Shown here in pieces: positions 18,707 through 48,680 of a stretch of DNA of 64,000 nt. Source of the DNA: Apostichopus japonicus (Eukaryota); the NCBI RefSeq assembly GCF_037975245.1, contig NC_092565.1:23210063-23274062 (forward strand), written 5' to 3'. The translations under genes and the position numbers were made by a program. The notes under the pieces are model-generated. The model worked only from the letters and a program-made list of their open reading frames with translations, was not told the DNA's origin and did no database searches. Position 1 is the first letter of the stretch; each line of letters begins with the position of its first letter.

Positions 18707-19477
18707 GTATGTACAGTACTACCCTTGCAGTTAATTATTTCAAACCACACTTTTTCAAAAAAACAATTGAGTCTCCTATTCCAGTTACAATGCAGATAAA
18801 TAAATGGAATGGAAATATCACTTGAACAATATGTATTGCAGCTGTCACCTAGAGAGATTCAAAAACTTACTGGTTTGGATATTTACGAGTGACGAGCTTA
18901 CCTGTCTCCTCACAACCTTAGCACCTCATTCTACCGTGCCTATAAAGTCCTGGTAAAATAATAACACTGTGCGCCCTCTATGACCGAACCCCCCCTCGGT
19001 CACTCCTCACTACTCATGAGACCACTCCTTAAAAGTGGCCTCACGGTCACCGAAATAGGGGTGGCCAGAATCCTCTGGCCACCCCCAAGGACTCCCGTCG
19101 ACTAAACTTCTCAAAGGTGAGCCCTTAACAAAAGGCACTGATGCCTTCCTAGCAGGGAGAGTGTAATCCTCCCCGCCGCAGCGGGTAAGGGGGGGGGGGA
19201 CACTCTCCTGAGCCCTGCAGGCGAAACTACCCCTTTTTCCTAACAAGGAGCCTCATCCTGTAAAGGCCCAACACTTGCTAACCCTAAGACAACTTAGGTG
19301 AGTACGCCTATGAAAAACACAGGGTGCAAAGTTACCCTCACCGATAGACCTGGCCGGTGACTCTTAGTAGTTGTTGGCTCTGTCTATCTGGTGTTGTGCT
19401 TGGAGTCGTGAGCCTAGTCGAACGACTGCTCCCCCGTCCGGCTGTGTCCCACCCCCTCGGGGGAGGGAGGCGGGAAT

Positions 19478-19575
19478 GGAGACAGGTAAGCTCGTCACTC
19501 GTAAATATCCAAACCAGTAAGTTTTGGAATATTTACTTCGCTCCTCGCTTACCTGTCTCCTCACAACCTTAGCAC
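19478..19575. repeat. Internal complementary region (ICR) of the DIRS-like element
   Basis: ggagacaggtaagctcgtcactcgtaaatatccaaaccagtaagtttt is the reverse complement of 18868-18909. ggaatatttacttcgctcctcgcttacctgtctcctcacaaccttagcac is the reverse complement of 25081-25130. Confidence 0.6.
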
Positions 19576-21573
19576 CGAGTGGCACTGCCCGATGGTGGGA
19601 GGCCCGAGGGGTGGGACCAAGTACCAACCGGCTACCACCGCGCTACCAAAAGCTGCCTCGGCGTGTAGAGTGTCAGGTAAGTAACAGGCGACGAACGTAG
19701 TTGGTGTTTTCCACGCTGCCACCTTGAGGATGTCCTGTATCGGGATACCGGCAGAGAGAGCTGTGGAAGCCGAGGCCCCACTGATGTTGTGATCTCTTGG
19801 CCGGGTATCCCCCCATCGTGAACGGGCGGATCATCTCTACTAGCCATCGGGATAGGGTATCCTTGGCGGCTGCTGTTTAAGGTGGTCGTGGCAGGATGAA
19901 AAGGGAGGTTGTTTGTCTCAACTTCTCTGTCCTGTTTAAGTACCACTTCAGTGCCCTGACTGGGCACCATCGCTTGTCCTCAGCCACTGATGAAAGGGTT
20001 TTGATTTCCGGAAAGAAAATGTCCCCGGGCAAGAAAGTCAAGGCCCGGTTCTTGGCAATAAGGGACGGGTCTGGAACTGTCCTCGCCCCATGGCCCTCGA
20101 ATCTGATGTGGTTCTGTTTGGTTGTTAGGGCTTGGAGGTAACTCCTTCACGCTGACGCTACCGCAATGACGAAGAGTGTTTTCTTTGTAAGAGCAGCCAG
20201 GGAAACGTTCCCCGACGATTCGTACAGCGGCCCTGCCAGGGCATGCAGCACTGCTGAGAGCCCCGCAGAGGGGGCTAACTGTCTGACTCGTGGACGGCGA
20301 TGAGCCATGCCTTTGGTGAGCTGGTCAATGTCTGGGTTAATGCCCAGCGTGGAGCCGTCTGGAAAACCAGACGTCCCCGTCTGGGGCCTGTGTGTGGGAC
20401 CTGCGGCCTGGGACCCGGGGTCCGGAGGGAGCCACTAGGATGAGTTTACCCTTGGAGCTGCGAATCTTCCTCAGTATCTGGCTGATCATGCCAAAGGGGG
20501 GGGGGGAAGAATTTAAACCTCTGGTCCGTCTCAAGGCAGGGACCTGGCGCTATGTGGGAGGCTGCAGGTGGGACCGCCTGTTACAAAAGATGGGCAGCCC
20601 ATTGTTGCCCTTTGTCGTAAGCAGGTCTATCAGAGGTATGCCGAACATGTGGAAAAACCTACCGCATGTTCCTTGCGAAGGGTTTACTCGTCGGGGTCGA
20701 GTTGTCCCCTGGGCAGAGCATCGGCCCTCACACTCTCCTTTCTGGCTATATGGGAGACCCATAGGGCCGTGCCAGATTCTGCAGCTGTGGTGACGGTCTC
20801 CCATGCCAGACGGCACAATCTCTCTGCCCTGGAGTCCTGAGAGCGAGGCGGAAGTACATGAAACCTGGTTATCTTTGCAAATAGAGTGTTGGGGCCGATC
20901 CTTTGCCCTGCTGACGCCACTGTGGTGCAGGAAAGTGGTTTCTCTGTATATGCTGCTAAAGAAGTCAAGGACAGTGGCCTGTATGATAACCTTGTTAGCG
21001 CCTGCAGTACAGCAGCACTCGCAGTACTGCTTGCATTACCACAGTACCGCTGATGACCCCTTTAGTTATCAACCAGTTGCAATCAGAAAACCTCTGAAGA
21101 AAAGTAATGCCTTGATGATGTAGACCTAAGCTGTACCCTGTAGGGAGGTTTAATGGAGGTTCTTTCCATGAAAAATAATATTAATAATAATATTGAGGGT
21201 TGAACTGCGCCGGCCTATCTATCGATAACGAAGCCAGAGGCGCTAGCAATATTACCCTGGTCAACAATAACCTGTTAAACAGAGAGAAATCCCTCCTGGA
21301 TGGAAAGACGCAATGGAGATAAAGTGCCTTGCCCAAGGAAACAACAGAATGATCTGGCCAGGACTAAAACCTGCAAGCCTTAGATCACCAGTACACTGCC
21401 TACACCGCTTGACCACAGTGCTCTCCAAAAATTGAGTACTGAATGGATAGTTTGCTTCATCAGAGTCTTAATCAATGCTACAGCTGCTATGTGGCTTTTA
21501 CAACTACAGTATATGTATGTATTTGTGTATGTAATTTAGATCATCCTGCAAGTAGGAACTTGTGAAGAAGCCT

Positions 21574-21761
21574 CATTGGCTTATCAAAGCCGCAAGCTGA
21601 CCAAAGTCAGTCTCGTACATTCATATTTTAATGTCCATGACTATGAATTGTCAACAGCTCTGTAACTGGACAACATACATTAATCTTGGGGTGACTTGAA
21701 CCGGGGACCTTTTGATTGGAAGGCACCGGGTTTAACCACTGAGCTAACTAAGCTACAGCCC
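21574..21761 (-). mobile_element. Full-length tRNA-derived SINE (minus strand), nested in the DIRS-like element
   Basis: Minus-strand 5' head gggctgtagcttagttagctcagtggttaaacccggtgccttccaatcaaaaggtccccggttcaagtcacc carries A-box-like (TAGCTCAGTGG) and B-box-like (GGTTCAAGTC) sequences. Its 3' end cannot pair with its 5' end as an acceptor stem, so it is not a functional tRNA. Its body and tail match the 5887 and 6151 copies. Confidence 0.6.
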
Positions 21762-22052
21762 TACTCACCAGGAACAAACTCCCAACAGGGGATGTGTAGG
21801 GTGGGTTTGTAGAAATTCCACCTCATAAATCCTGGCTGTTTAACGGAGTCCAGGGAGTGACTCAGCAAACACAAAGGCGTTACTAAATGTTTAGTCTTTT
21901 GCTATGATAGCGTTATTAGAGGTGTAAGAAATATGTTACCGAAACCCTTTAGGGGCTATTATTTCAAAACAATTTCCGTTAAGACATTAATATAACATTA
22001 ATATAACGTAATATCTCATAGACATCTTATGTCAACGTTTTATCAACACCAC

Positions 22053-24290
22053 ATTTAACGTAATAAACACGTATTGAATGTTATGATAACGTACCCGTTA
22101 CTTCTCAAATCTCTTCCTGTCGAGATGTGTCCATTTCGTAGTGCAGTAAAGGTATCCAGCTTCCTATTGAAACCACCTAGCGCCTAGGCTAGTCAAGACT
22201 AGGCCATCAGGTGCTACGAAATGCAACTCTGCTTAAGATGTCGGAACATCGAACATTGTTCATAAAGCGCATGCTGTATGTTCGGAGCGTGTTAGCGCTT
22301 GTAACTTGCTGGGGTTGTATCCTACCCCTTTTTCAACTTACTAACGCGTTTGTCTTGGTAATTCACCAAAGAAATAGGAAGAAAGGCTTATTCCATAGGA
22401 TCGCTCACGTAGTCGATAGCTCGTTGCAGTAAAAGTTGAGCTTACACGTGTCAAGCCAGGTGGCTGCTTGGCCCCCCCCTCCTCTCTTAACAAATGTGCC
22501 ACGTTGTACCTTTTTTTCTGGCAGTTTGCCAAGGATCTATGAGCGTTATGTTTCCTGGCACTTTGCCAAGTCTCGAGAAAGTTCTCTTCCTAGCAGTTTG
22601 CCAAGGTTTTAAAGTAAACGGAATACTGTAAGTCATGAGAACCGATTTAAAACCCCTCAGTCTTACGCATTTTAACATGTTCTGGAAGTGGGTTCACCAG
22701 TGTTTTAAACGACAGTGTTTTTAAACACAAGTAAGATTTTAACCTAGGCAAATGGCGATGAATTATGATTAGAGAGGAGTATAATTAGCGAGGAGAATAT
22801 GACCCATGAGTGTCTGCAGGTACTCGATAAATAAACACACATTTGGGATGTGTAGTGGTAGCGGTGTTTTTCCGCAAATGATTCGAACCTGTCGTCGCCG
22901 CTCAAGCTGCTAGTTCCGGGAGGGGGACACTCCCCCTATTCTGGGAAGCGGGAGTAACCGTCCTCTGTAACCCCGAAATCTAGGGGTCGACCTCGTCGTC
23001 TAGGCCGGACAGGTTGCCCGACGCTCTGCAAACCAGGTCGTCCTTGCCGGGGAACAAATCAGGTTCCATTCTTTGGTCTGGGATTGATCGTGGTGTCGCG
23101 GCCGGGCTGGCCGTGGGTTGCGATCGCTCCTCGGCACCGATGTCTGTGTTCGGTGTCTGGGGATAAGTATTTCTCCCTTTGCCGTGGGAACCTGGCTCGG
23201 GGCTGGTTCTCTTTTCGGATTGGGCGCTTGCCCCTGCTACCCCGTTCTGGGGGCCCGGCATTGGTAATCTCGTCGGTTCCCGGCCTCAGGACCGGCCGCG
23301 GCTCCGGTTAGGGGGTCTGCGGGCCGGGCTTCTGCACCTGCTACCCCATTCTGGGGGCCTAGCAGTTGTTAATCTCGTTGTAAATGTTGTTGTAGTTGTA
23401 AATGTTATTGTAAATGTCGCAGTTGTAAATGTTGTTACTCTCGTAGGCTCCCGACTTCGGGACCAGTTTTGGATCCCGTTTGGAGATCTGCGGACCGGGC
23501 TTCTGCCCCTGCGCCCCCGTTCTCGTCGGGCCCGGGCCCTCCGGAGCCAATCTCTGAGGACCCAGCAGTCGATTGTATAGCTCTGGTTCCCGGCTCCGGG
23601 GGCGGTCTCGGATCTGGAGTGAAAACTCGGTTCTGCCTTCCCTTCGAGTCTCGCCGGACCCGGGGTCTCGCCGGACCCGGGGCCTCGCCGGACCCAGGCT
23701 CCCGGAGCCCGTCTCTGTGTGCGTACCACGCCGGGTACCACCACGCCGGTATTCCTCGACCCGGACATTCTGTCCTTTCCGGTGGGATTTTTTTTTTTTT
23801 TTTTTTTTCTCGCCGGACCCGGGCTCCCCGGAGCCTGCTATGGGACCGGCTCCGTTTCAGCGACCCCTCGGTCGTACTCTCTCTCTCGGACCCGAGCTCT
23901 CCGTGGCCTGTAGCCCGCGCTCCATGGGTCTCTCTTGCTGCGACCCGGACTGAGACGTTGCCTCTAGCCCGGCCGAGCCGTGCCTCTTCTCAAGAGGTCT
24001 TTTCTTGGCAGGAGCCTTGCTCCTGCCCTTCCCTCTGGCCGTAATCAACCGGACGTCGCCGGGACCGTTAGGGGTACTCTTTCTCTCTCTCTCCACCTCT
24101 CCTTCGGCCCTCTCCTGGCCACTTTCCTCCACCTCTCTCACCACTTCTCCCTCCTCCTCTCTCTCTCTCTCTTGTCTCTCCTATATCTTTTTCTGGGGCA
24201 CCGATGGCCTAAGGAATCAAGTCCAGCCTGCCCTAAAGCTTGCTTCTTAGACTCGTAAGCCACTGGTCTATCTAGTGCCACTGGGCTGGC
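22053..24290. repeat. Unclassified dispersed repeat X, copy 1 (inside the DIRS-like element)
   Basis: Collinear with 33805-35300: acatttaacgtaa..tgaatgttatgataacgtacccgttac..; the tandem motif tggcagtttgccaagg; the tract gctagttccggg...ccgtgggaacct.gctcgggc..ggtt; and a CT-rich 3' tract. Internal (GCCGGACCCGGGG)n repeats, a T21 run at 23783-23803 and an A11 run at 24395-24408. Confidence 0.6.
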
Positions 24291-25186
24291 GAAAAATTTA
24301 TGCAGACCAGGCATGGGTCCCGTCTGGTGTAGGTTCTACACTTAGGACACAAATCGTGTTCGACCCAGGTTCTGCCTGGCCGAAACATCGAAAGTTAAAA
24401 AAAAAAACTTCAGCTGGTTACGAGACAAACTAAAACGCCCGAATTAAGGAAAGACTAACTCTTAAGCTTACGGAAAAATGCAAACTAGCAAGAGAACGGG
24501 AGAGAACGGGAGGTACATAACGGTGAGTAGAGGTACGTAGCGTAACCTAGCAACGGCAAAATACGAAAAACGCTATGAAGTGGCCTAACAAAATCAACAC
24601 AAGCTGAAAAAGAACATGAGAGAGCGAAATATAGAAGAAGAAATCGTGAATAGAAATACAATGTAGACATGCTATGAACATGAAAATACAACGACACGCC
24701 TATAGCGTGGGGAAGGGAAATTGGCGGGAAACCTAGGCAGTTCGCGGAACTGCTACCCCCGCAAAAAACCTAAGGGCGGAAACGCACTAGGAATAAAAAC
24801 AGTCCCCAAAACCCTCCCTTTCAACAAAAAAGGATACTTATCGGGCTGGAAAGGACTGCAATACTCCTAAGAATCCGAGGAAAGAAACTTCCAAAGATCG
24901 CTAAAGAAAACCAAGACGAAATCCAAGGGAAATATATCCACAAGAAATTCACGTGAAGACACTTTTAATGGTAGAATGAGTAGTGAGGAGTGACCGAGGG
25001 GGGGGGAGGGGTTCGGTCATAGAGGGCGCACAGTGTTATTATTTTACCAGGACTTTATAGGCACGGTAGAATGAGGTGCTAAGGTTGTGAGGAGACAGGT
25101 AAGCGAGGAGCGAAGTAAATTTCTATATTGTATATCAACAATGAATTTATATGGTTTATTGATTCACTTTATTCTACTTCTTGCAG

Positions 25187-25237: not shown

Positions 25238-25918
25238 GTATGTACAGTACTACCCTTGCAGTTAATTATTTCAAATCACACTTTTTCAAAAAACAATTGA
25301 GTCTCCTAATATTCCAGTTACAATGCAGATAAATGAATGGAATGGAAATATCACTTGAACTTAATAAGAACCATGATGGCATTAAATTTCATGCATGAGA
25401 AGAGTTAAGGCAATCTGAGTGAATCTCATAGTATATACCAGAACATATATATAGAGAGGCAACATTTCATCAATATGAAGAATTTCTTTCTCACCAATAA
25501 ATGGAGACCTATTAAAGTAGAATCATGAAGCAAACAAACATACCCTTAACTACCTTTAAGTATTAGGCATTAGTGTTGTATTACTGTAGTTCCACTAAAA
25601 TTAGATCAAAATAATAGTCCTTATATTCTTCATAGAAACAACATAAGGAAGCGGTACATATATCCTCCAATCTAAATTATCTGTATGAAATGATGGAAGT
25701 CTGCAGTTGCACCACAACTGACAGTGAGTATGGGTACCACTGACCTACAACTGTATGTTAGTACAATGCATGCATGTGTGTCGCTCAAAAGTATGCATAA
25801 AAAATCGTGTGTGGAAGTAGTGTTACATATAGGATTTAAAAAAATAGTTGATGAGATTTTCATGTCATGGTCTGTCAATTAAACCCAACTTCTGTTTGTA
25901 TAGGAACAAAGCACACTA

Positions 25919-33488: not shown

Positions 33489-33618
33489 TGGACACTCGGG
33501 ACCTAGAAATGGACAGTCTGGACTTAGAAATGGACAGTCTGGACCTGAAATTGGACGCTCGGGACCTAATAGTAGACAGTCGGGACCTAATGAATAATGG
33601 ACAGTCTGGACTTGATAG
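33489..33618. repeat. Minisatellite, ~6 units of 21-24 bp (ggacagtctggacctagaaat-like)
   Basis: Direct reading. It produces the periodic LDTRDLEMDSLDLEMDSLDL ORF artefact. Confidence 0.8.
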
Positions 33619-33778
33619 CTTATTCCTCCTGTCTCAGAAACGGACCCCTAGGTAAAACTTTAAAGTGCCCTCATTACAGGAGTAAACGACTTGAAACAAG
33701 TTTAAGATCATCACTTGATAGTACGCATCGAGTTACATCACGACACCAATTTATGTCCCGAAAACTATGTCGAATATG

Positions 33779-33808
33779 CTAACCCTAAGCTAACCCTAGC
33801 TAACCCAC
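33779..33808. repeat. Short interstitial telomere-like tract (CCCTAA-like x3, imperfect)
   Basis: ctaaccctaagctaaccctagctaaccc sits immediately 5' of repeat X copy 2. Confidence 0.4.
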
Positions 33809-35300
33809 ATTTAACGTAAACACGTAATGAATGTTATGATAACGTACCCGTTACTCCTCAAATCTCTCCATGTCGAGACGTGTCAATTTCGTAGTGTAGT
33901 ACAGTAGAAGTATCCAACTTCCTATTGAAACCACCTAGCGCATAGCCACGACTAGGCTATCAGGTGCTACAAAATGCAACTGTGCTTAAAATGTCGGAAC
34001 ATCGAACATTATTCATGAAGCGCATACTGTATGCTCGGAGCGCTTGTACCTTCGCTGGGGTTTTATCCTACCCCTTTTCCAACTTACTAACGCGTTTGTC
34101 TTGGTAATTCACCCAAAAAGTAGAGAGAGAGGCTTATTCCATGGGATCGCTCACGTAGTCGACAGCTCGTTGCAGCAAACGTTGAGCTTACACGTGTCAA
34201 TCCAGGTGACTGCTCGCCCCCCCCCCCCCCTCTCATAACAAATATACAGCGCGGGTATATCTTCTTGGCAGTTTGCCAAGGTACTAAAAAGGGCTTCGTT
34301 TTCCTGGCACTTTGCCAAGTTTCGAGAACGTTCTCTTCCTGGCAGTTTGCCAAGGTACTACGAGACTGTACTAGAATCGCTTCAGTTTTGCGCATTTTGA
34401 CATGCTCTAGAGGGGGTTCCACAAGCGTTTTAAACAACAAAACACAAGTAAGGTTTCAAACCTAGACATATGGCGATGAATTATAATGAGAGAGAAGTAT
34501 AATTAGCGAGGAGAATATGACCCATGAATGCCCAGGAAATCTATGTCATGTCCTGGTTTCTGCTGGTACTCGTTAAACACACATTTGGGATGTGTAGTGA
34601 TAAATGGTGTAGCGATTGCAGTGTCTTTCCGCAATTGATTCGAACCTGTCGTTGCAGCTCAAGCTGCTAGTTCCGGGGGGCAACACTCCCCTGATGAAAG
34701 AGACTTTTCCCCCTCTTGGAAGCGGGATTAACTTTGAGGCTGGGGATACGTATATCTCCGTTTGCCGTGGGAACCTCGCTCGGGCCGGCTTTCTTTTCGG
34801 ATTGGGCGTTTGCCCTTACTACCCCGTTCTGGGGGCCCAGCAGTTGTTGATCTCATCGGTTCCCGGCTCCGGGACCGGCTCCTGGGATCCGGAGTGGAAC
34901 CTCGGTTCCGCACTCCCTGTGAGGGCTCGCCGGACCCGTGGTCTCGTCGGACCCGGGCCCCCGGAGCCCATCTCGGTGTGCGTACCTAGCCGGGTACCAC
35001 TCCCCTCGACCTGGACATTCTGTCCGTTCCGGTCGGAATTTCAAATGGGCTATTTATTGGCCTTGAGCCTTGCCCTTGCCTTCACCCTTGGTCATAGAAT
35101 CCGGACGGTGCCGGGACCTTGGGGGCAATATCTCTTTCTCCTCTCTCTCTCTCCTCCGGCCTCTCTCGCCGGACTCGGGCTCCCGGAGCCTATCTTCCTC
35201 AAAATAACCCCCCTATCATCCCAGGGAGGGATCGCTGGACCTCCCATCTACCACAACGTTTTAAGTTTTACCTCTTAAAGTGCCCCCAGTCAACAGGAGG
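33805..35300. repeat. Repeat X, copy 2. Its 3' end grades into the satellite array.
   Basis: See copy 1. Its end (35196-35250, ctcaaaataacccccctatcatcccagggagggatcgc) matches the first ~40 bp of the satellite monomer. Confidence 0.6.
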
Positions 35301-35539
35301 GGGTTTCAAGAAGACGTATTTTTTCACAGTTTTCAAAACAAAAACACCTATTTTCCCATAAATAGAATTCATAATGATAAATAACCTTTCCTGATAAGAA
35401 AATTACACGGTCTTGGTAGCTAACGCAAGCTGATAGTCTCTGCTACTTACCCTGAAATGGTGTTGTCGCTGAAATCCCATGTGTGGGCGTGAGGAGGGTC
35501 CAAGAGAGGTCCAAAAGCGAGATTCCTCCTTATACTCTC

Positions 35540-38500
35540 ATGTTAAATTTTGTATTTTTTCTGTTTTTTCTCTCAAAATAACCCCCCTATCACCCTAGGG
35601 GGGATCGCACTCCCAATTATGTTACCATTTTGGACAGCAGACACCCTAGTGGTGGTACCCTGTCAAAATGGGCCCAAAAGGGCCTGGCTCCTGTGCGTGG
35701 TAAGGCCTGCAAGGTCCAAAGCGGGTTCCCTCCGTATACTCTAACGTTAAATTATTGACTTATTTCGTGGGTTTTCACAAAACAACCCCCCTATCACCCT
35801 TGGGAGGAATCGCACCCCCAATTATTGTACCATTTTGGACAGCAGACACCCTAGTGGGGGTACCCTGTCAAAATGGGCCCAAAAGGGCCTGGCTCCTGTG
35901 CGTGGTAAGGCCTGCAAGGTCCAAAAGCGGGTTTCCTCCACTCTAACGTTAAATTATTGACTTATTTCGGGGGTTTTCACAAAATAGCCCCCCTATCACC
36001 CTTGGGAGGAATCGCACCCCCAATAATTGTACCATTTTGGACAGCAGACACCCCAGTGGGGGTACCCTGTCAAAATGGGCCAAAAAGGGTCAAGACCCTG
36101 TGCGTGGTAAGGCCTGCAAGGTCCAAAAGCGGGTTTCATCCGTATACTCTAACGTTAAATTATTGTCTAATTTCGGTGTTTTTCACAAAATAACCCCCCT
36201 ATCACCCTAGGGGGATCGCACTCCAAATTATGTTACCATTTTGGACAGCAGACACCCTAGTGGTGGTACCCTGTCAAAATGGGCCCAAAAAGACCAGGCT
36301 CATGTGCGTGGTAAGGCCTGCAAAGTCCAAAAGCGGGTTTCCTCCGTATACTCTTATGTTAAATTATTGACTACTTTCGGTGTTTTTCACAAAATAACCC
36401 CCCTATCACCCTAGGGGGGATCGCACTCCAAATTATGTTACCATTTTGGACAGCAGACACCCTAGTGGTGGTATCCTGTAAAATTGGGCCAAAAATGGTC
36501 AGGCCCTGTGCGTGGTAAGGCCTGTAAGGTCCATAAGTGGGTTTCCTCCCAATACTCTAATGTTAAATTTTGTATTTTTTCGTTTTTTTTTCTCAAAATA
36601 ACCCCCCTATCACCCTAGGGGGGATCGCACTCCCAATTATGTTACCATTTTGGACAGCAGACACCCTAGTGGTGGTACCCTGTCAAAATGGGCCCAAAAG
36701 GGCCTGGCTCCTGTGCGTGGTAAGGCCTGCAAGGTCCAAAGCGGGTTCCCTCCGTATACTCTAACGTTAAATTATTGACTTATTTCGTGGGTTTTCACAA
36801 AACAACCCCCCTATCACCCTTGGGAGGAATCGCACCCCCAATTATTGTACCATTTTGGACAGCAGACACCCTAGTGGGGGTACCCTGTCAAAATGGGCCC
36901 AAAAGGGCCTGGCTCCTGTGCGTGGTAAGGCCTGCAAGATCCAAAGCGGGTTTCCTCCACTCTAACGTTAAATTATTGACTTATTTCGGGGGTTTTCACA
37001 AAATAGCCCCCCTATCACCCTTGGGAGGAATCGCACCCCCAATAATTGTACCATTTTGGACAGCAGACACCCCAGTGGGGGTACCCTGTCAAAATGGGCC
37101 CAAAAGGGTCAAGACCCTGTGCGTGGTAAGGCCTGCAAGGTCCAAAAGCGGGTTTCATCCGTATACTCTAACGTTAAATTATTGTCTAATTTCGGTGTTT
37201 TTCACAAAATAACCCCCCTATCACCCTAGGGGGATCGCACTCCAAATTATGTTACCATTTTGGACAGCAGACACCCTAGTGGTGGTACCCTGTCAAAATG
37301 GGCCCAAAAAGACCAGGCTCATGTGCGTGGTAAGGCCTGCAAAGTCCAAAAGCGGGTTTCCTCCGTATACTCTTATGTTAAATTATTGACTACTTTCGGT
37401 GTTTTTCACAAAATAACCCCCCTATCACCCTAGGGGGGATCGCACTCCAAATTATGTTACCATTTTGGACAGCAGACACCCTAGTGGTGGTATCCTGTAA
37501 AATTGGGCCAAAAATGGTCAGGCCCTGTGCGTGGTAAGGCCTGTAAGGTCCATAAGTGGGTTTCCTCCCAATACTCTAATGTTAAATTTTGTATTTTTTC
37601 GTTTTTTTTTCTCAAAATAACCCCCCTATCACCCTAGGGGGGATCGCACTCCCAATTATGTTACCATTTTGGACAGCAGACACCCTAGTGGGGGTACCCT
37701 GTCAAAATGGGCCCAAAAAGACCAGGCTCATGTGCGTGGTAAGGCCTGCAAGGTCCAAAAGCGGGTTTCCTCCGTATACTCTAATGTTAAATTATTGACT
37801 AATTTCGGTGTTTTTCACAAAATAACCCCCCTATCACCCTAGGGGGGATCGCACTCCCAATAATGTTACCATTTTGGACAGCAGACACCCTAGTGGTGGT
37901 ACCCTGTCAAAATGGGCCCAAAAGGGCCTGGCTCCTGTGCGTGGTAAGGCCTGCAAGGTCCAAAGCGGGTTCCCTCCGTATACTCTAACGTTAAATTATT
38001 GACTTATTTCGGGGGTTTTCACAAAACAACCCCCCTATCACCCTTGGGAGGAATCGCACCCCCAATTATTGTACCATTTTGGACAGCAGACACCCTAGTG
38101 GGGGTACCCTGTCAAAATGGGCCCAAAAGGGCCTGGCTCCTGTGCGTGGTAAGGCCTGCAAGGTCCAAAAGCGGGTTTCCTCCACTCATAACGTTAAATT
38201 ATTGACTTATTTCGGGGGTTTTCACAAAATAGCCCCCCTATCACCCTTGGGAGGAATCGCACCCCCAATAATTGTACCATTTTGGACAGCAGACACCCCA
38301 GTGGGGGTACCCTGTCAAAATGGGCCAAAAAGGGTCAAGACCCTGTGCGTGGTAAGGCCTGCAAGGTCCAAAAGCGGGTTTCATCCGTATACTATAACGT
38401 TAAATTATTGTCTAATTTCGGTGTTTTTCACAAAATAACCCCCCTATCACCCTAGGGGGATCGCACTCCAAATTATGTTACCATTTTGGACAGCAGACAC

Positions 38501-41500
38501 CCTAGTGGTGGTACCCTGTCAAAATGGGCCCAAAAAGACCAGGCCCATGTGCGTGGTAAGGCCTGCAAGGTCCAAAAGCGGGTTTCCTCCGTATACTCTA
38601 ATGTTAAATTATTGACTAATTTCGGTGTTTTTCACAAAATAACCCCCCTATCACCCTAGGGGGGATCGCACTCCAAATTATGTTACCATTTTGGACAGCA
38701 GACACCCTAGTGATGGTATCCTGTAAAATTGGGCCAAAAATGGTCAGGCCCTGTGCGTGGTAAGGCCTGTAAGGTCCATAAGTGGGTTTCCTCCCAATAC
38801 TCTAATGTTAAATTTTGTATTTTTTCGTTTTTTTTTCTCAAAATAACCCCCCTATCACCCTAGGGGGGATCGCACTCCCAATAATGTTACCATTTTGGAC
38901 AGCAGACACCCTAGTGGTGGTACCCTGTCAAAATGGGCCCAAAAGGGCCTGGCTCCTGTGCGTGGTAAGGCCTGCAAGGTCCAAAGCGGGTTCCCTCCGT
39001 ATACTCTAACGTTAAATTATTGACTTATTTCGGGGGTTTTCACAAAACAACCCCCCTATCACCCTTGGGAGGAATCGCACCCCCAATTATTGTACCATTT
39101 TGGACAGCAGACACCCTAGTGGGGGTACCCTGTCAAAATGGGCCCAAAAGGGCCTGGCTCCTGTGCGTGGTAAGGCCTGCAAGGTCCAAAAGCGGGTTTC
39201 CTCCACTCATAACGTTAAATTATTGACTTATTTCGGGGGTTTTCACAAAATAACCCCCCTATCACCCTAGGGGGGATCGCACTCCAAATTATGTGACCAT
39301 TTTGGACAGCAGACACCCTAGTGATGGTATCCTGTAAAATTGGGCCAAAAATGGTCAGGCCCTAAGCGTGGTAAGGCCTGTAAGGTCCATAAGTGGGTTT
39401 CCTCCCAATACTCTAATGTTAAATTTTGTATTTTTTCGTTTTTTTTTCTCAAAATAACCCCCCTATCACCCTAGGGGGGATCGCACTCCCAATAATGTTA
39501 CCATTTTGGACAGCAGACACCCTAGTGGTGGTACCCTGTCAAAATGGGCCCAAAAGGGCCTGGCTCCTGTGCGTGGTAAGGCCTGCAAGGTCCAAAGCGG
39601 GTTCCCTCCGTATACTCTAACGTTAAATTATTGACTTATTTCGGGGGTTTTCACAAAACAACCCCCCTATCACCCTTGGGAGGAATCGCACCCCCAATTA
39701 TTGTACCATTTTGGACAGCAGACACCCTAGTGGGGGTACCCTGTCAAAATGGGCCCAAAAGGGCCTGGCTCCTGTGCGTGGTAAGGCCTGCAAGGTCCAA
39801 AAGCGGGTTTCCTCCACTCATAACGTTAAATTATTGACTTATTTCGGGGGTTTTCACAAAATAGCCCCCCTATCACCCTTGGGAGGAATCGCACCCCCAA
39901 TAATTGTACCATTTTGGACAGCAGACACCCCAGTGGGGGTACCCTGTCAAAATGGGCCAAAAAGGGTCAAGACCCTGTGCGTGGTAAGGCCTGCAAGGTC
40001 CAAAAGCGGGTTTCATCCGTATACTATAACGTTAAATTATTGTCTAATTTCGGTGTTTTTCACAAAATAACCCCCCTATCACCCTAGGGGGATCGCACTC
40101 CAAATTATGTTACCATTTTGGACAGCAGACACCCTAGTGGTGGTACCCTGTCAAAATGGGCCCAAAAAGACCAGGCCCATGTGCGTGGTAAGGCCTGCAA
40201 GGTCCAAAAGCGGGTTTCCTCCGTATACTCTAATGTTAAATTATTGACTAATTTCGGTGTTTTTCACAAAATAACCCCCCTATCACCCTAGGGGGGATCG
40301 CACTCCAAATTATGTTACCATTTTGGACAGCAGACACCCTAGTGATGGTATCCTGTAAAATTGGGCCAAAAATGGTCAGGCCCTGTGCGTGGTAAGGCCT
40401 GTAAGGTCCATAAGTGGGTTTCCTCCCAATACTCTAATGTTAAATTTTGTATTTTTTCGTTTTTTTTTCTCAAAATAACCCCCCTATCACCCTAGGGGGG
40501 ATCGCACTCCCAATAATGTTACCATTTTGGACAGCAGACACCCTAGTGGTGGTACCCTGTCAAAATGGGCCCAAAAGGGCCTGGCTCCTGTGCGTGGTAA
40601 GGCCTGCAAGGTCCAAAGCGGGTTCCCTCCGTATACTCTAACGTTAAATTATTGACTTATTTCGGGGGTTTTCACAAAACAACCCCCCTATCACCCTTGG
40701 GAGGAATCGCACCCCCAATTATTGTACCATTTTGGACAGCAGACACCCTAGTGGGGGTACCCTGTCAAAATGGGCCCAAAAGGGCCTGGCTCCTGTGCGT
40801 GGTAAGGCCTGCAAGGTCCAAAAGCGGGTTTCCTCCACTCATAACGTTAAATTATTGACTTATTTCGGGGGTTTTCACAAAATAGCCCCCCTATCACCCT
40901 TGGGAGGAATCGCACCCCCAATAATTGTACCATTTTGGACAGCAGACACCCCAGTGGGGGTACCCTGTCAAAATGGGCCAAAAAGGGTCAAGACCCTGTG
41001 CGTGGTAAGGCCTGCAAGGTCCAAAAGCGGGTTTCATCCGTATACTATAACGTTAAATTATTGTCTAATTTCGGTGTTTTTCACAAAATAACCCCCCTAT
41101 CACCCTAGGGGGATCGCACTCCAAATTATGTTACCATTTTGGACAGCAGACACCCTAGTGGTGGTACCCTGTCAAAATGGGCCCAAAAAGACCAGGCCCA
41201 TGTGCGTGGTAAGGCCTGCAAGGTCCAAAAGCGGGTTTCCTCCGTATACTCTTATGTTAAATTATTGACTAATTTCTGTGTTTTTCACAAAATAACCCCC
41301 CTATCACCCTAGGGGGGATCGCACTCCAAATTATGTTACCATTTTGGACAGCAGACACCCTAGTGGTGGTATCCTGTAAAATTGGGCCAAAAATGGTCAG
41401 GCCCTGTGCGTGGTAAGGCCTGTAAGGTCCATAAGTGGGTTTCCTCCCAATACTCTAATGTTAAATTTTGTATTTTTTCGTTTTTTTTTCTCAAAATAAC

Positions 41501-43215
41501 CCCCCTATCACCCTAGGGGGGATCGCACTCCCAATTATGTTACCATTTTGGACAGCAGACACCCTAGTGGTGGTACCCTGTCAAAATGGGCCCAAAAGGG
41601 CCTGGCTCCTGTGCGTGGTAAGGCCTGCAAGGTCCAAAGCGGGTTCCCTCCGTATACTCTAACGTTAAATTATTGACTTATTTCGGGGGTTTTCACAAAA
41701 CAACCGCCCTATCACCCTTGGGAGGAATCGCATCCCCAATTATTGTACCATTTTGGACAGCAGACACCCTAGTGGGGGTACCCTGTCAAAATGGGCCCAA
41801 AAGGGCCTGGCTCCTGTGCGTGGTAAGGCCTGCAAGGTCCAAAAGCGGGTTTCCTCCACTCTACGTTAAATTATTGACTTATTTCGGGGGATTTCACAAA
41901 ATAGCCCCCCCCTATCACCCTTGGGAGGAATCGCACCCCCAATAATTGTACCATTTTGGACAGCAGACACCCTAGTGGGGGTACCTTGTCAAAATGGGCC
42001 AAAAAGGGTCAAGACCCTGTGCGTGGTAAGGCCTGCAAGGTCCAAAAGCGGGTTTCCTCCGTATACTCTAACGTTAAATTATTGTCTAATTTCGGTGTTT
42101 TTCACAAAATAACCCCCCTAACACCCTAGGGGGATCGCACTCCAAATTATGTTACCATTTTGGACAGCAGACACCCTAGTGGTGGTATCCTGTAAAATTG
42201 GGCCAAAAAGGGCCTGGCCCCTGTGCGTGGTAAGGCCTGTAAGGTCCATAAGTGGGTTTGCTCCCGATACTCTAATTAATGTTAAATTTTGTATTTTTTC
42301 GTTTTTTTCTCAAAATAACCGCCCTATCACCCTTGGGAGGAATCGCACCCCCAATTATTGTACCATTTTGGACAGCAGACACCCTAGTGGGGGTACCCTG
42401 TCAAAATGGGCCCAAAAGGGCCTGGCTCCTGTGCGTGGTAAGGCCTGCAAGGTCCAAAAGCGGGTTTCCTCCGTATACTCTTATGTTAAATTATTGTCTA
42501 ATTTCGGTGTTTTCACAAAATAACCGCCCTATCACCCTAGGGGGATCGCACTCCAAATTATGTTACCATTTTGGACAGCAGACACCCTAGTGGTGGTATC
42601 CTGTAAAATTGGGCCAAAAAGGGTCACGCCCCTGTGCGTGGTAAGGCCTGCAAGGTCCAAAAGCGGGTTTCCTCCGTATACTCTAACGTTAAATTATTGT
42701 CTAATTTCGGTGTTTTTCACAAAATAACCCCCCTATCACCCTAAGGGGATCGCACTCCCAATTATGTTACCATTTTGGACAGCAGACACCCTAGTGATGG
42801 TATCCTGTAAAATTGGGCCAAAAAGGGTCACGCCCCTGTGCGTGGTAAGGCCTGCAAGGTCCATAAGTGGGTGTCCTCCCTATACTCTAATGTTAAAAAT
42901 ATTGTATTTTTTCAATTGTTTCTCAAAATAACCCCCCTATCACCCTTGGGAGGGATTGCATCCCCAATTATGTTACCATTTTGGACAGCAGACACCCTAG
43001 TGGTGGTACCCTGTCAAAATGGGCCTAAAAGGGCCTGGCCCCTTGTGCGTGGTAAGGCCTGCAAGGTCCAAAAGCGGGTTTCCTCCCTAGCCTTTTATGT
43101 AAAATTTTGTATTTTTTTCGGTTTTTTCTCGAATTAACCCCCCCTTTCACCCAGGGAGGGATCGCACCCCCTATTATTGTACCATGTTGGTCAGCAGACA
43201 CCCTGGTTTTGGTAC
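35540..43215. repeat. Satellite DNA. The monomer is ~205 bp, organised as a ~1.02-kb five-monomer higher-order repeat, with ~38 monomers in all.
   Basis: The monomer ...ctcaaaataacccccctatcaccctaggggggatcgcactcccaattatgttaccattttggacagcagacaccctagtggtggtaccctgtcaaaatgggcccaaaagggcctggctcctgtgcgtggtaaggcctgcaaggtccaaagcgggttccctccgtatactctaacgttaaattattgac... The HOR period shows in the identical ORF starts at 35550, 36570, 37589, 39426, 40447 and 41468 (spacing 1019-1021), with 3- and 6-monomer variants at 38815 and 39426. Edge monomers (35196, 42900-43200) are diverged. Confidence 0.9.
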
Positions 43216-43225
43216 CACAATGAAA

Positions 43226-43275
43226 ATATTACAATAATCACAATAATAATGATAATAATGATAATAATAATGAAT
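43226..43275. repeat. Microsatellite (ATAATAATG / AAT-rich) capping the satellite
   Basis: caataatcacaataataatgataataatgataataataatg. Confidence 0.8.
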
Positions 43276-44716: not shown

Positions 44717-44740
44717 CAGTTGTGGGGCGCCCCACAACTG
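44717..44740. repeat. Perfect 24-bp palindrome CAGTTGTGGGGCGCCCCACAACTG. Related half-sites lie at 44497, 44551 and 44795.
   Basis: Direct reading. The half-site motif acagttgtgggg / ccccacaa recurs four times within 320 bp. Confidence 0.7.
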
Positions 44741-44816
44741 CAGGTTACACAAAAATCGGATCAACAATTGAATGTGTGTGTCAGTTCTGCTGCCCCACAA
44801 TGGTGTGGCATGTAAG

Positions 44817-44862
44817 AACACACATACATACATACATACATACATACACACACACACACGCC
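44817..44862. repeat. Microsatellite (CATA)n(CA)n
   Basis: acacacatacatacatacatacatacatacacacacacacacg. Confidence 0.85.
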
Positions 44863-45614
44863 AACCTGACTGCATAGGTTCCTTTTGCTAAAGCAAGGAA
44901 CCAAAAAGTGATTGTAAACAAGGGAAGATTGGAAATTATTTCACGTCTTGACAGCAAGATACCAAACTTTTAAGAGAAAAGCTACTTAAGCTCTTTTGAG
45001 TGGCAGATTGGAGTGATAAGCCCACCCATATTGTATACAGAGGGAGAGAAAGCGTTCCCCTTTTTCTCTTCTTTCACAACACACTAGTAGATCTAGCTTT
45101 GACGAAACACATCCACCCACCCTTCAGACGGCTAGTTCGCGACCGTGGTCAAAAATCTCTTATTACACTCGAAATGTATTGATATAATATTACTTTAACA
45201 TATACACACGCACCTGGAATATATGCTTTTCAGAACAGCTAGGCAATACCATTGACACATTCAAGTAGTAGGCATACTATATCATATACATATCGATAAA
45301 AAGATTTCATTTTCTTTCTCAAAATAGGACCAAAATGTGTTGTCATGGTAACAGGGATTGCTTGCGTGGTCACGTGGTAACGTATGGTGTCACAGCTACG
45401 CTTGTGAGCAGGTGGATTAATCCTCGATGGGGGGAATTTTGTAGTGTTCCCCTGTCCGATCGAAGAGTTCAGAAACGGGGCCACTGACGATTCTTTGTTG
45501 ACTGGAACATCCCGGGTTATATGCATATTCATATCCTCTGATTCTCAATCAATTCCCATCGAAAGATATGGCCATCATACATGAATAATCATCAAGTATA
45601 TCTTGATGAATCCT

Positions 45615-46141
45615 TCAATGGCTAAACAACATTGGATGAAGCGGGTGACTCGCGAGGGGAAAAAATGGCGGATAGAAGTTGATCTGTGGACACATCTGAG
45701 ACTGTGCTAGGAGGGGATCAGGGTAGGCAGCAGGGAGGGGCTGGTAGGGATTATCCCGGAAGAGGACTTTGACGGCAACTTTCTTGGCTGGTGAAGGAGA
45801 CATCATCTCGGCGGCCATTTGCTTCCTTTTCGTCTTGTATCTCCGATTCTGGAACCATATTTTGATTTGTTGTTCAGTGAGTTTGAGAGCAGCGGCGAGA
45901 TCTCCCCTCTCTGGACCAGAGAGATACCGCTGATGCCTAAACCGCCTCTCCAGTTCGTAAACTTGTGCGTGGGAGAAAGCTGCCCGTGAGCGCTTTTTTC
46001 GCGGCGCGTTCGAACCGCTCGTGGATGAGGAAGAGGAGGAGAGTGACTCCGTTTTTGAGAGCGAGTCACTGTTTTGGTCAGAAGTACTCTGTACGCTGTG
46101 TGGTCGCGAGGGTGGTTTGGAATCAGTTGAGTCACACTGTC
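45615..46141 (-). CDS. nkx3: NK3-class (bagpipe/Nkx3) homeobox gene, exon 2 (homeodomain plus C-terminus, stop TGA)
   Basis: Minus-strand acceptor tttctttctgttcacag|GACAGTGTGAC. The encoded homeodomain [62 protein letters not shown] matches the NK3/Bapx signature ([60 protein letters not shown]). [12 protein letters not shown]2-SD-like motif lies downstream. The phase-1 acceptor (x+GA) matches the exon 1 donor. Confidence 0.85.
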
Positions 46142-48680
46142 CTGTGAACAGAAAGAAATATAAGAGCAATAAGTCAACGTTTTTACTCATTAAGGAAATT
46201 TGTTTAGACAGGGAAGATAGCAATGCGGTCGGGAGTGGTATTACCAAATGGAGTGGTTCAGAGAAAAGATATTTCAAACTCCGCGGGTGGACAAAAAACC
46301 CACTCAGTTATACGACGGGGTATAGAGCAAAAGAACTAAAACACGAAAGAGTGAATGACCTAATGTTTTCCTGAAGAAGATATGTTTATTATGATCGCCG
46401 TAAAAGTCAGTATCGCGTATTTCGACCTTGCCTTGTTTTCACGGTCGTAAACAATGAGTTTATAGTTTATCTTTATGTGGTTTGTTGTAAAACATAACAT
46501 CCTTAGCGAAACCATATCATGTTGAGTGTAAAAATTGTTTATTTTCACGATTAAAACGTTTCGAAAGATTTTTTTATACTTTAATCGAGGACACTTATAT
46601 ATGCAAAGTATTAGTGTTCAATGTTGTTTCTATTTAAGTTATGACTATACTATAACCTTCGTAAAGAAATACGTGGTGGGTGTCTCCCTTGATTACCAAC
46701 AATGATAAAATTTATATTGATTCTAAGAAGAAGAAAAAAAAGTTTTCCAACTTGTTAATTTTTTTTTATCAACCCAAATGGAAATGAAAGGGGAATATCT
46801 TGGATCTTTATTGTAAAGATACATTAATGTTAATTCTTAAGAAATCAGGTGCATAAATTTCATAACGATAAGTTACGATGTGTTTAACGATGTGTTTTAC
46901 TCAAGTTGGTAAGTTTTAAATGGCCTCGATGGGCAATCAGAAGGCTGCTAATTAATTAACTTAATGACTCAAGTGTGACAGTAACGTATCATGACTTTCT
47001 CCATGAAACCGGCAAAATGGAGTGGAAGGGGTGTAGGGGTGTGTGCTGGTGGAGAGGGAGGGGGGTTGGGGTTGGAGAGAGAGAATGTTATCGAAACTGG
47101 AAAATGACAACAGTGAGTGTTCAACTCCCGCCCCCCCCCCCCATGCGCCCAATCTCTATCTCATGCTCACTTTCCATATAATAAATTAATAATAACATCC
47201 GGTTATGTCATCACTTGTCGGTGAACAACTGCCGGTATGTGTTATCTTACATAGAGAGAAGTCTTTCTACACGCTGAAGGAGCATGAATGCTTGCACTGT
47301 ATAATACTGTAGAGAGGACATGCTTACATCAACATTCAAGAATCACAAACATGCAGCAAGATTTCACATCTCCGGGTTATATATTATGTCCTTCCTCTAA
47401 CCGTCATATATTCTCTCTCTCACTCGAGAAACGCCATGAAAATAACGATTTTAAGAATAACAGATCGCCTAAATATGTTGTACCCTATTCCTTGTGAATC
47501 AAAAGAATGATTTATGAAGACCCTCTCTCTCTGGAAGAGGTTACAGGGGTTTAGTGGCTGCACTTGGCCGTTTCGCTTTTAGCAAAAACACACCAAAGTG
47601 AGGAGGATGACAGTCCGACAACAAACATATTCAATTAAATTTATTTCCTTGTTTGAGCAGAGAAAAAAGTTTATCTACGATTAATTTGAAGCTTGGGTAA
47701 TACTTTCAGCTCTTCTTAAAGAGGATTCTTTTGTTTCCGTTTAAGGTTGGTTGGAAAAGCTTTGTTTAACTAAGACTGTAAAGTGTGATAAATGCAAATG
47801 ATTAATAGACTTGACCCAAGAAGATAATCAAAGAAGATTCATCGTCTTGTTGAGACGGCAAAAATAATAGCCATTTATCCCTGAGAAAACATGAGGAGTA
47901 GAGTTGGGGAGAGGCAGGAGAGATGATGAAAAGAATGGCATGGTGTAATTCCTTTGTCTTATTAGAATAAGAAGACTTCATGCGTACAAAACAAAAGTGA
48001 CAGTTATTGTTCAATTAAAAAAATCTTAAATTAATTACTCAATTAGTTACATATACAAACAATTTAGTACCGAGAACAGCGCAGAGCATGCGCACAATGG
48101 CGCTCTCGATTCTTTGTTTCAGTAATCATCCGTGACAAATTTTAATCCAGTTGAAATATTCGAGTCACAAATTGGCGCAAAATTGATCTCGAAATAAAGT
48201 TTAGGTTTGTTTATAAGTTCTTACTTAATTATATTGCTGACTAAGGTATGCTCAATTCTTTATAATTTTGGAATGTGTAACTATAGAACTAAACTACTAA
48301 ATATAGATTTGAAAAATACATTTCTGACATAACAGAACTATGATTTCATATCCAATTATTTTTCAGTTTTCTCGTGTCTCGTTCCTGCATGTCAAATATC
48401 AAAATAATTACTCACTATTTGAGTGCAACCGCGCGTAAAACGTTAATCTAAGAAATGTCTATACCTTAAATCTCTAGTATTTCGATGTCGGAGTCGCAAA
48501 AACTTTTGAAATTTTACTGTAAGCTTCAAACCCTTTAATTTTACACACTTTTCTTCAAATAAATCAGAATATCCTTAGTTTATTATCTGCATTTAAGAAA
48601 GTCAATAATGACAAGAAATACTTAATCGAGAAGGAGAGATCACTGAATCTTGTCAGCTAAGATAATTTTGTTTATTAAAC

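What the first reader, a model, noticed from the sequence alone, without database searches (positions are those of the whole stretch)
35196..43215. A satellite with higher-order-repeat structure seeded from the 3' end of dispersed repeat X, with a visible homogenisation gradient
The ~205-bp monomer's first ~40 bp match the 3' end of repeat X copy 2 directly upstream (35196-35250). The first and last monomers keep the X-like variant cccagggagggatcgc, while interior monomers are homogenised to ccctaggggggatcgc. The array is organised into ~1.02-kb pentameric HOR units that are near-identical to each other. Monomers within a unit differ by ~10-15%. The last ~1.3 kb (41.9-43.2 kb) is progressively more diverged. 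This is a clear snapshot of satellite birth from a transposable-element tail, followed by unequal-crossover homogenisation. Many stop-free ORFs (64-145 aa) across it are artefacts.
Basis: seen in the sequence. Interest (0 to 1): 0.5.

Follow-up and report, generated by a model that had tools for sequence, protein, structure and literature searches.

The report
Ordinary satellite array, not TE-seeded
This is a real 7.7-kb non-coding tandem-repeat array with a five-monomer higher-order structure, lying beside the Nkx3.2 homeobox gene of the sea cucumber Apostichopus japonicus; it belongs to an older repeat family and did not arise from the neighbouring transposable element, so it is an ordinary example of satellite DNA evolution.

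Summary
The array is real. It spans 35507-43216 and holds 38 monomers of about 204 bp. Monomers m1-m31 form a pentameric unit of 1019-1021 bp (types A-E). Units are 98.2-100% identical to each other, while monomer types are only 79-92% identical. The last 1.4 kb (m32-m38) is diverged and not organised in units. Four hybrid monomers and an exact 1435-bp internal duplication show out-of-register exchange.

The origin story fails. "Repeat X" is a ~6.9-kb element with inverted terminal repeats. "Copy 2" (33805-35196) is only an internal 1.39-kb fragment of it. In five other A. japonicus X copies, and in the diverged copy in the window, the sequence after ...GGAGCCTATCT continues as X. None carries the satellite-like 41-mer. 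That 41-mer (35195-35235) begins exactly where X is truncated, and ~270 bp of unrelated DNA separates it from the array.

A related ~200-bp family (62-69% identity) forms arrays on an unrelated public contig. Its motif resembles the edge variant GGGAGGG. So the edges keep an older state, but it is not X-derived.

The ORFs are artefacts. Verdict: a new member of a known kind, of low interest.

The parts
35507..41839 (+). Higher-order-repeat core of the satellite array. It holds monomers m1-m31 in the pattern ABCDE | ABCDE | A(m11) x(m12) BCDE | AB(C/E) | ABCDE | ABCDE | AB.
   Evidence: TRF. Monomer identity matrix with 99-100% identity at lag 5 in the regular parts. HOR units of 1019-1021 bp differ by 0-18 mismatches; m13-17 is identical to m21-25.
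41840..43216 (+). Diverged distal tail, not organised in higher-order units. It comprises m32 (C', 96% to type C), m33 (D/E-like), m34 (A/B hybrid), m35 and m36 (E/D-like, 95-96%), m37 (A-like, 88%) and m38 (truncated, about 80% over 137 bp).
   Evidence: The array ends at monomer-model position 148, in an A-run.
37550..37959 (+). Hybrid monomers m11 (type A 5' part joined to type D 3' part) and m12 (type E 5' part joined to type A 3' part). They are the footprint of an out-of-register exchange that added one monomer to this unit.
   Evidence: Painting of 58 diagnostic columns against the five monomer types.
39187..39386 (+). Hybrid monomer m19 (type C 5' half joined to type E 3' half). It is the footprint of a two-monomer deletion by C/E misalignment.
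   Evidence: This unit has 3 monomers instead of 5.
42251..42454 (+). Hybrid monomer m34 (type A 5' part joined to type B 3' part).
35195..35235 (+). Orphan 41-bp monomer fragment, matching model positions 56-97. It carries the older motif CCCAGGGAGGGATCGC, shared only with m38. It starts exactly at the truncation point of the X fragment and is not part of X.
   Evidence: nhmmer E = 5.6e-7. Alignment A2 with five X copies. The motif occurs twice in the window.
35236..35506 (+). Spacer between the orphan fragment and the array. It has no significant similarity to the monomer, to X, or to any fetched locus.
   Evidence: Local alignment score of 30 against a null of 28 +/- 6. No hits in other loci.
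33805..35196 (+). It is a 1.39-kb internal fragment of a ~6.87-kb element and is cut at both ends. It corresponds to L005 9104-10503 and is 93-95% identical to five other copies.
18862..25120 (+). It lacks the 41-mer.
33779..33806 (+). Short telomere-like run (CTAACCCTAAGCTAACCCTAGCTAACCC) that abuts the left truncation point of the X fragment.
   Evidence: Read directly from the sequence. TRF row 33778-33806.
44818..44906 (+). 3' tail of a dispersed retroposon-like element, which I call 'E'. It consists of (ACAT)n(CA)n, then 57 conserved bp that include the hairpin GGTTCCTT..AAGGAACC, then A5GT. The older A. japonicus assembly stops being colinear with the window at 44899/44900.
   Evidence: 94.6% identical to L007 14694-14782. 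Related tail in L009 with a compensatory stem change. Breakpoint shown.
45615..46277 (-). Context: the homeodomain exon of Nkx3.2. It identifies the organism and places the array 2.4 kb downstream of the gene.
   Evidence: Pfam Homeodomain, E = 2e-20. 100% identical to an NCBI A. japonicus protein. Locus L001.

Best explanation
This is an ordinary, locally amplified, non-coding satellite array in intergenic DNA, 2.4 kb downstream of Nkx3.2 in Apostichopus japonicus.

Shown:
- The ~204-bp monomer belongs to a repeat family that pre-dates this array. Relatives at 62-69% identity form arrays on an independent contig.
- Five diverged monomer types form a 1.02-kb unit, and copies of that unit are 98.2-100% identical.
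- Hybrid monomers and a 1.4-kb exact duplicate mark out-of-register exchanges.
- The distal tail and an orphan 41-bp fragment carry an older sequence state than the interior.
- The neighbouring X sequence is a truncated internal fragment of a 6.9-kb element and played no part in founding the satellite.

Inferred:
- The five types became fixed together as a unit, which then spread by unequal crossing-over, gene conversion or segmental duplication within the array.
- The distal tail and the orphan fragment escaped homogenisation.
- The proximal boundary (telomere-like run + X fragment + orphan monomer piece + unrelated spacer) is a patchwork left by later breakage and repair or by insertions.
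- The array has no sequence-specific function.
For: - Array and HOR.
- Unequal exchange: hybrids m11/m12, m19 and m34, and an exact 1435-bp repeat at 37818/39450.
- Not X: the five other X copies continue ...GGAGCCTATCT|CTGTGTGCGTACC..., whereas the window reads ...GGAGCCTATCT|TCCTCAAAATAACCCCCC (alignment A2). X copy 1 reads the same way as the others.
- X is about 6.87 kb, and the window piece equals its internal segment 9104-10503.
- No monomer-like sequence occurs in about 125 kb of other A. japonicus loci that include five full X copies.
- Older family: L009 carries 33 homologous monomers in four blocks (nhmmer E down to 1e-31). There, a retroposon-like element is inserted inside a monomer and the monomer phase continues across the insertion, so the satellite came first.
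- Polarity: L009 monomers mostly carry CCC(C)GGGGAGG(G). This resembles the orphan piece, m37 and m38 (GGGAGGG). Types A, D and E carry the derived TAGGGGGG.
- Non-coding: no true protein relatives, no Rfam family or tRNA, and only a weak fold signal (z = -2.15).
Against: - The genome-wide distribution of the monomer in A. japonicus could not be examined. Whether this is the only array, one of many, or a stray copy of a large heterochromatic satellite is unknown.
- The organism behind L009 is unknown. It is a contig in an ENA metagenome assembly and could even be A. japonicus itself, so 'older than the species' is not proven.
- The five young X copies are 97-99% identical to each other and therefore sample X diversity poorly. 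Only the diverged copy in the window adds independent evidence.
- The older A. japonicus assembly shares nothing with the window to the left of 44899. The array is therefore not independently confirmed at this locus.
Confidence: 0.8

Rival explanations
1. First reader's model. The satellite was seeded from the 3' tail of dispersed repeat X: the last ~40 bp of X duplicated and grew into the array.
For: A 41-bp monomer-like piece directly follows X-homologous sequence at 35195-35235. It shares the rare variant CCCAGGGAGGGATCGC with the last monomer.
Against: - The piece is absent from five other X copies and from X copy 1.
- X homology stops exactly where the piece begins, at an internal position about 2.2 kb from the element's end.
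- Full-length X contains nothing monomer-like.
- About 270 bp of unrelated DNA lie between the piece and the array.
- A related satellite exists elsewhere without X.
Confidence: 0.03
2. The array is the expanded internal tandem repeat of a mobile element, or was carried here together with the retroposon-like element E. E's 3' tail lies 1.6 kb downstream and ends at the point where the two assemblies diverge. This would be TE-borne satellite dispersal, as in tandem-repeat-carrying Helitron/Helentron or MITE-like elements, or 5' transduction by a retroposon.
For: - On L009 the same two components occur together in the same order and orientation, with monomer blocks followed by E.
- The window array ends at model position 148 and the L009 blocks end at 151-156, in the same A-run.
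- E's tail ends at 44906, within 7 bp (a shared AAAAAGT) of the point at 44899/44900 where the window and the older assembly diverge.
- Tandem repeats carried by TEs are well documented (review PMC10048060).
Against: - On L009, E is cleanly inserted into a pre-existing monomer, and the monomer resumes in phase after E. The association there is an insertion, not a common origin.
- E-like copies in L005, L006 and L007 have no monomers next to them.
- The window holds only an 89-bp E tail, separated from the array by 1.6 kb of unrelated DNA.
- Neither flank of the array recurs in other loci.
- No terminal inverted repeats bracket the array.
- The apparent similarity between the post-array spacers ('linkers') in the window and on L009 is not significant.
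Confidence: 0.12
3. The regular HOR block is an assembly artefact, for example over-expansion or mis-tiling of long reads across a shorter array.
For: - There are exact repeats of up to 1435 bp.
- The older assembly has no homologous sequence next to the 44899 breakpoint.
- No satellite-derived ORFs were found among Logan assemblies of A. japonicus reads.
Against: - The array has internally consistent irregularities (hybrids, a diverged tail, unit-specific substitutions). These are typical of real arrays and not of mis-tiling.
- A related family exists independently.
Confidence: 0.04

Closest known systems
Higher-order-repeat satellite arrays (archetype: primate alpha satellite; also reported in beetles and other taxa)
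   Same: - Head-to-tail monomers of roughly nucleosomal length.
- A multi-monomer unit whose copies are near-identical (98-100%) while its constituent monomers are much more diverged (79-92%).
- Diverged monomers outside the HOR pattern at an array edge.
- Turnover by unequal exchange. General description in PMC8122249.
   Different: - The array is only 7.7 kb.
- It lies in gene-adjacent, repeat-rich euchromatin-like sequence next to Nkx3.2.
- Nothing ties it to a centromere.
- Genome-wide abundance is unknown.
- Edge divergence is seen on one side only.
Euchromatic or short satellite arrays, and tandem repeats associated with transposable elements (Tribolium castaneum euchromatic satellites; Crassostrea gigas Helitron/Helentron-borne repeats; Drosophila 1.688)
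   Same: A modest-sized array near a gene, embedded among TE fragments. On L009 the related family is interleaved with a dispersed element. This pattern is reviewed in PMC10048060.
   Different: - TE-borne arrays in those systems are usually under 10 monomers and have conserved TE flanks.
- Here there are 38 monomers with a HOR.
- The flanks do not recur in the loci available.
- The monomer is not homologous to the adjacent TE.
Satellites born from transposable-element sequence (for example tandem TE insertions or expansion of internal TE repeats; McGurk & Barbash 2018 as listed in the references of PMC10048060; otherwise from my own knowledge)
   Same: An array sits directly beside a TE fragment, with a short shared-looking piece at the junction.
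   Different: The defining feature is monomer homology to the TE consensus. It was tested and is not met for X.

Membership tests
Satellite DNA with higher-order-repeat organisation | Head-to-tail tandem monomers of one family | tested here: met
   TRF finds period 204 and 37.7 copies. All 38 monomers were recovered by BLAST.
Satellite DNA with higher-order-repeat organisation | Identity between multimeric units is much higher than identity between monomers within a unit | tested here: met
   Units are 98.2-100% identical. Monomer types are 79-92% identical.
Satellite DNA with higher-order-repeat organisation | Non-coding | tested here: met
   No true protein relatives. Monomer lengths range from 200 to 208 bp and the HOR is 1021 bp, which is not a multiple of 3. 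No Rfam family or tRNA match.
Satellite DNA with higher-order-repeat organisation | High genomic abundance or long arrays in heterochromatin (the classical definition) | not testable with these tools
   No A. japonicus whole-genome search was available. There were no copies in about 125 kb of other loci and none in JGI metagenome contigs.
TE-derived satellite (derived from X) | The monomer, or its founding segment, is homologous to the TE consensus | tested here: not met
   The 41-mer is absent from six other X copies. A profile search with the monomer found nothing in full-length X copies.
TE-derived satellite (derived from X) | The array adjoins a genuine terminus of the TE | tested here: not met
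   The junction at 35196 corresponds to L005 position 10503. This is about 2.2 kb inside the 5809-12681 element.
Tandem-repeat-carrying mobile element (Helitron/Helentron-derived, MITE-like or retroposon-borne) | The array is bracketed by conserved element flanks or termini that recur at other loci | tested here: inconclusive
   Flanks 35236-35506 and 43217-44817 have no matches in the fetched loci. Only an 89-bp E tail recurs. The sample is small and no whole-genome search was possible.
DIRS-like retroelement (as the identity of X) | Inverted terminal repeats, plus an internal region complementary to both outermost termini | tested here: met
   L005 has perfect 114-bp inverted repeats at 5847-5960 and 12555-12668. 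The internal block 6395-6494 is complementary to 5804-5863 and to 12635-12681. Assigning this layout to the DIRS family rests on my own knowledge.
DIRS-like retroelement (as the identity of X) | Encodes reverse transcriptase and a tyrosine recombinase | tested here: not met
   The element has only short ORFs (359 aa or less), and the four ORFs of 130 aa or more that were scanned have no Pfam hit. The copies examined would have to be non-autonomous or decayed.

The most novel reading that the evidence does not exclude
The whole block to the left of 44899 may be a structural variant sitting 700 bp to 10 kb downstream of the Nkx3.2 coding exon. This block comprises the satellite array, the orphan monomer piece, the X fragment and the telomere-like run. 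Its creation would have involved the retroposon-like element E, because the older assembly diverges from the window within 7 bp of E's 3' end. If so, a satellite array would have been moved or juxtaposed by a retroposition-associated rearrangement and then expanded into a HOR in place. That would give a datable, polymorphic case of satellite relocation next to a developmental gene.
Probability: 0.1. Interest if true: 0.45.

Novelty: new member of a known kind. Interest (0 to 1): 0.2.

Why it matters
It matters little beyond cataloguing. It documents an apparently undescribed ~204-bp satellite family in the sea cucumber A. japonicus; the paper library held no relevant paper on satellite DNA in this species or in sea cucumbers. 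The family has a clean pentameric HOR and readable footprints of unequal exchange. The more useful lesson is a caution. A short monomer-like piece next to a TE fragment looked like "satellite birth from a TE tail". Comparison with other copies of the TE showed that the piece lies beyond a truncation point and is not TE sequence. The unresolved disagreement between the two assemblies immediately downstream of Nkx3.2 may matter for anyone studying regulation of that gene.

Tried and rejected
- **Coding potential of the array ORFs.** The word-indexed protein search found nothing. The exhaustive phmmer search over 1.84 billion representatives gave two weak hits. P0128/L010 is an unrelated 68-bp repeat with no DNA similarity and was rejected as chance. 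P0127/L009 is a translated relative of the satellite, not a protein.
- **Structured RNA.** No Rfam family at gathering or E-value thresholds and no tRNA. The monomer fold is only z = -2.15, and the 8-bp palindrome is absent from types B and C.
- **Terminal inverted repeats around the array.** None were convincing.
- **Extending the 41-mer into a decayed monomer.** The segment 35236-35511 scores no better than shuffled sequence. A 23-bp similarity between 33660-33682 and 35315-35339 is marginal.
- **Composite-element idea** (array + post-array spacer + 145-bp repeats + tail). The spacer ('linker') similarity is not significant. No 145-bp units occur in the window.
- **Finding the monomer elsewhere by DNA pattern.** There were 0 hits in JGI metagenome contigs.
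- **Confirming junctions in independent read assemblies.** Two exact look-ups found nothing: the ORF that spans the array's distal junction and an ORF just downstream of it.
- **Classifying X and the 640-aa ORF by Pfam.** No hits.
- **Walking further along the L009 contig.** The attempt failed because its gene calls do not translate in table 11.
Full report
**Source of the window.** An ORF at 45615-46277 (minus strand) encodes a homeodomain (Pfam E = 2e-20). It is 100% identical to an NCBI Apostichopus japonicus protein that UniRef names Nkx-3.2. The window is therefore sea cucumber genomic DNA. The array lies 2.4 kb downstream of this exon, in a very repeat-rich stretch.

**The observation.**
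- TRF reports one array at 35507-43216 with period 204, 37.7 copies and 88% matches.
- BLAST with one monomer recovers 38 consecutive copies. Outside the array it finds only a single 36-41-bp piece at 35195-35235.
- An all-against-all identity matrix shows five monomer types (A-E) that recur every fifth monomer.
- Types are 79-92% identical to each other. Whole units of 1019-1021 bp differ by only 0-18 mismatches, and m13-17 is identical to m21-25. The pentameric HOR is real.
- Monomers m32-m38 (41840-43216) fall outside the HOR pattern and are more diverged. The diverged distal ~1.3 kb is also real.

**Evidence for unequal exchange.** I painted atypical monomers against 58 columns that distinguish the five types.
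- m11 is type A at its 5' end and type D at its 3' end. m12 is type E then type A. Together they add one monomer to that unit.
- m19 is type C then type E, which removes two monomers from its unit.
- m34 is type A then type B.
- A 1435-bp exact repeat at 37818/39450 records a recent 8-monomer duplication.

**What X really is.** I fetched the loci of five of them.
- X is a ~6.87-kb element (L005 5809-12681). Its copies are 97-99% identical to one another.
- It has perfect 114-bp terminal inverted repeats and an internal block complementary to both outermost ends. From my own knowledge this is a DIRS-like layout.
- It has only short ORFs, and the four largest have no Pfam hit.
- The window's "copy 2" (33805-35196) matches only the internal segment L005 9104-10503, at 93-95% identity, and is cut sharply at both ends.
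- "Copy 1" is part of a diverged full-length relative at about 18862-25120.

**The junction.** All five other copies read ...CTCCCGGAGCCTATCT|CTGTGTGCGTACCACGCC.... The window reads ...CTCCCGGAGCCTATCT|TCCTCAAAATAACCCCCCTATCATCCCAGGGAGGGATCGC... (alignment A2). The diverged copy in the window also continues with ...TCTCTGTGTGCGTACC.
- The satellite-like 41-mer is therefore not X sequence. It begins exactly where X is broken off, about 2.2 kb short of the element's end.
- A monomer profile finds nothing in the five full X copies or their 10-kb flanks.
- The 41-mer is also not contiguous with the array. The stretch 35236-35506 has no detectable monomer similarity, and the first true monomer carries the interior motif.
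- The claim that the array was "seeded from the tail of X" is refuted on the evidence available.

**An older family.** An exhaustive protein search with a translated monomer ORF found a weak hit, P0127. Its encoding contig, L009, comes from ENA metagenome assembly ERZ26859072; the organism is unknown.
- L009 carries 33 clearly homologous ~200-bp monomers in four blocks (nhmmer E down to 1e-31; 62-69% nucleotide identity).
- The blocks alternate with a 145-bp repeat, a (CA)n run and a hairpin tail. I call this element E.
- E is inserted inside a monomer...GGTATCATGAA[E...AAGGAATCAAAAA]TGGGGGG.... The monomer resumes in phase after E. The satellite therefore pre-dated E at that locus.
- E-like units are dispersed in A. 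japonicus with no monomers beside them.
- The second protein hit, P0128/L010, is unrelated.

**Polarity of the edge variant.** CCCAGGGAGGGATCGC occurs only in the orphan piece and in m38. L009 monomers mostly carry CCC(C)GGGGAGG(G). GGGAGG(G) is therefore the older state. It is retained in the orphan piece, m37, m38 and, in modified form, types B and C. TAGGGGGG in types A, D and E is derived.

**The proximal boundary.** From left to right it consists of:
- a 21-bp minisatellite (33489-33611);
- a short telomere-like run (33779-33806);
- the doubly truncated X fragment;
- the orphan monomer piece;
- about 270 bp of unmatched DNA.
I infer that this is a patchwork left by breakage and repair or by nested insertions beside or into an older array edge. 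This is inference only.

**The distal side and the second assembly.** The older assembly (GCA_002754855.1, scaffold MRZV01000214.1, locus L001) is colinear with the window from 57036 down to 44900, at about 97% identity. To the left of that point it shares nothing with the window over its remaining 9.3 kb.
- The 3' end of an E tail (44818-44906; 94.6% identical to L007 14694-14782) lies within 7 bp of this break, and the AAAAAGT at 44900-44906 is shared by the window, L001 and L007.
- The E hairpin shows a compensatory change between A. japonicus and L009: GGTTCCTT/AAGGAACC against GATTCCTT/AAGGAATC.
- I could not tell whether the discordance is a structural variant or a misassembly. As a result, the array is not independently confirmed at this locus.
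- A TE-borne or E-associated origin for the array remains a minor rival. The window holds only an 89-bp E tail, 1.6 kb from the array. The array's flanks do not recur elsewhere, and no inverted repeats bracket it.

**Function and coding.** Nothing indicates a function. There are no true protein relatives. Reading frames are not preserved between monomers. No RNA family or tRNA matches. The fold signal is weak, and its palindrome is not conserved across monomer types. The ORFs are artefacts of low stop-codon density on the plus strand.

**Comparison with known systems.** The array has the defining features of a HOR satellite (PMC8122249). It also resembles the gene-proximal, TE-interspersed arrays reviewed in PMC10048060. 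The paper library held no relevant paper on satellite DNA in A. japonicus or sea cucumbers, so the family is probably undescribed.

**Verdict.** The central interpretation, birth from X, is wrong. The object is a new member of a well-known kind and of low interest.

Noticed in passing
window 1-2417 and 7938-15233: A second, larger tandem array with a period of about 1325-1327 bp. Its copies are 93-99% identical. It is interrupted by about 5.5 kb of other sequence, and it runs off the left end of the window.
   Followed up: no
window 18041-18856 and 25121-25360: A 268-bp unit is repeated three times immediately left of the diverged full-length X relative. A fourth copy (94-96% identical) lies immediately to its right, so the repeat brackets the element.
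   Followed up: no
L005 5804-12681 (and L004, L006-L008): X is a young ~6.9-kb family whose copies are 97-99% identical. It has perfect 114-bp inverted terminal repeats and an internal block complementary to both outermost termini, which is a DIRS-like layout. It has only short ORFs, and the four largest have no Pfam hit. A. japonicus gene models annotate parts of it as hypothetical proteins.
   Followed up: partly
window 33489-33611 and 33779-33806: A 21-bp minisatellite and a short interstitial telomere-like run (CTAACCC-type). They lie directly against the left truncation point of the X fragment.
   Followed up: no
window 44899/44900 versus L001 11291/11292: The older A. japonicus assembly (MRZV01000214.1) and the window are colinear on the Nkx3.2 side. 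On the other side they share nothing for at least 9.3 kb in L001 and 44.9 kb in the window. The breakpoint lies within 7 bp of the 3' end of a retroposon-like tail. It could be a structural variant or a misassembly.
   Followed up: partly
window 44818-44906; L007 14391-14790; L005 5286-5713; L006 19772-20389; L009 (four copies): A dispersed element, 'E', built from 145-bp internal repeats, a (CA)n/(ACAT)n run, a conserved 3' hairpin and A5. Copies have a constant 3' end and variable 5' extent. The hairpin stem shows a compensatory G:C to A:T change between A. japonicus and L009.
   Followed up: partly
window 27820-29742 (+): A 640-aa ORF with no Pfam hit. By eye its C-terminal part resembles a Crypton-type tyrosine recombinase.
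   Followed up: no
L009 1-13195: The related satellite and E form a superstructure of ~3.0-3.2-kb units nested in a ~9.17-kb repeat. The gene calls on this contig do not translate in table 11, so they are probably artefacts of an alternative-code gene caller.
   Followed up: partly
window 39457-39480 and equivalent positions in type A, D and E monomers: The derived motif CCCCCCTA-TCACCC-TAGGGGGG forms a perfect 8-bp-arm palindrome (one G shorter in type D). Types B and C, the edge copies and the L009 relatives lack it.
   Followed up: partly
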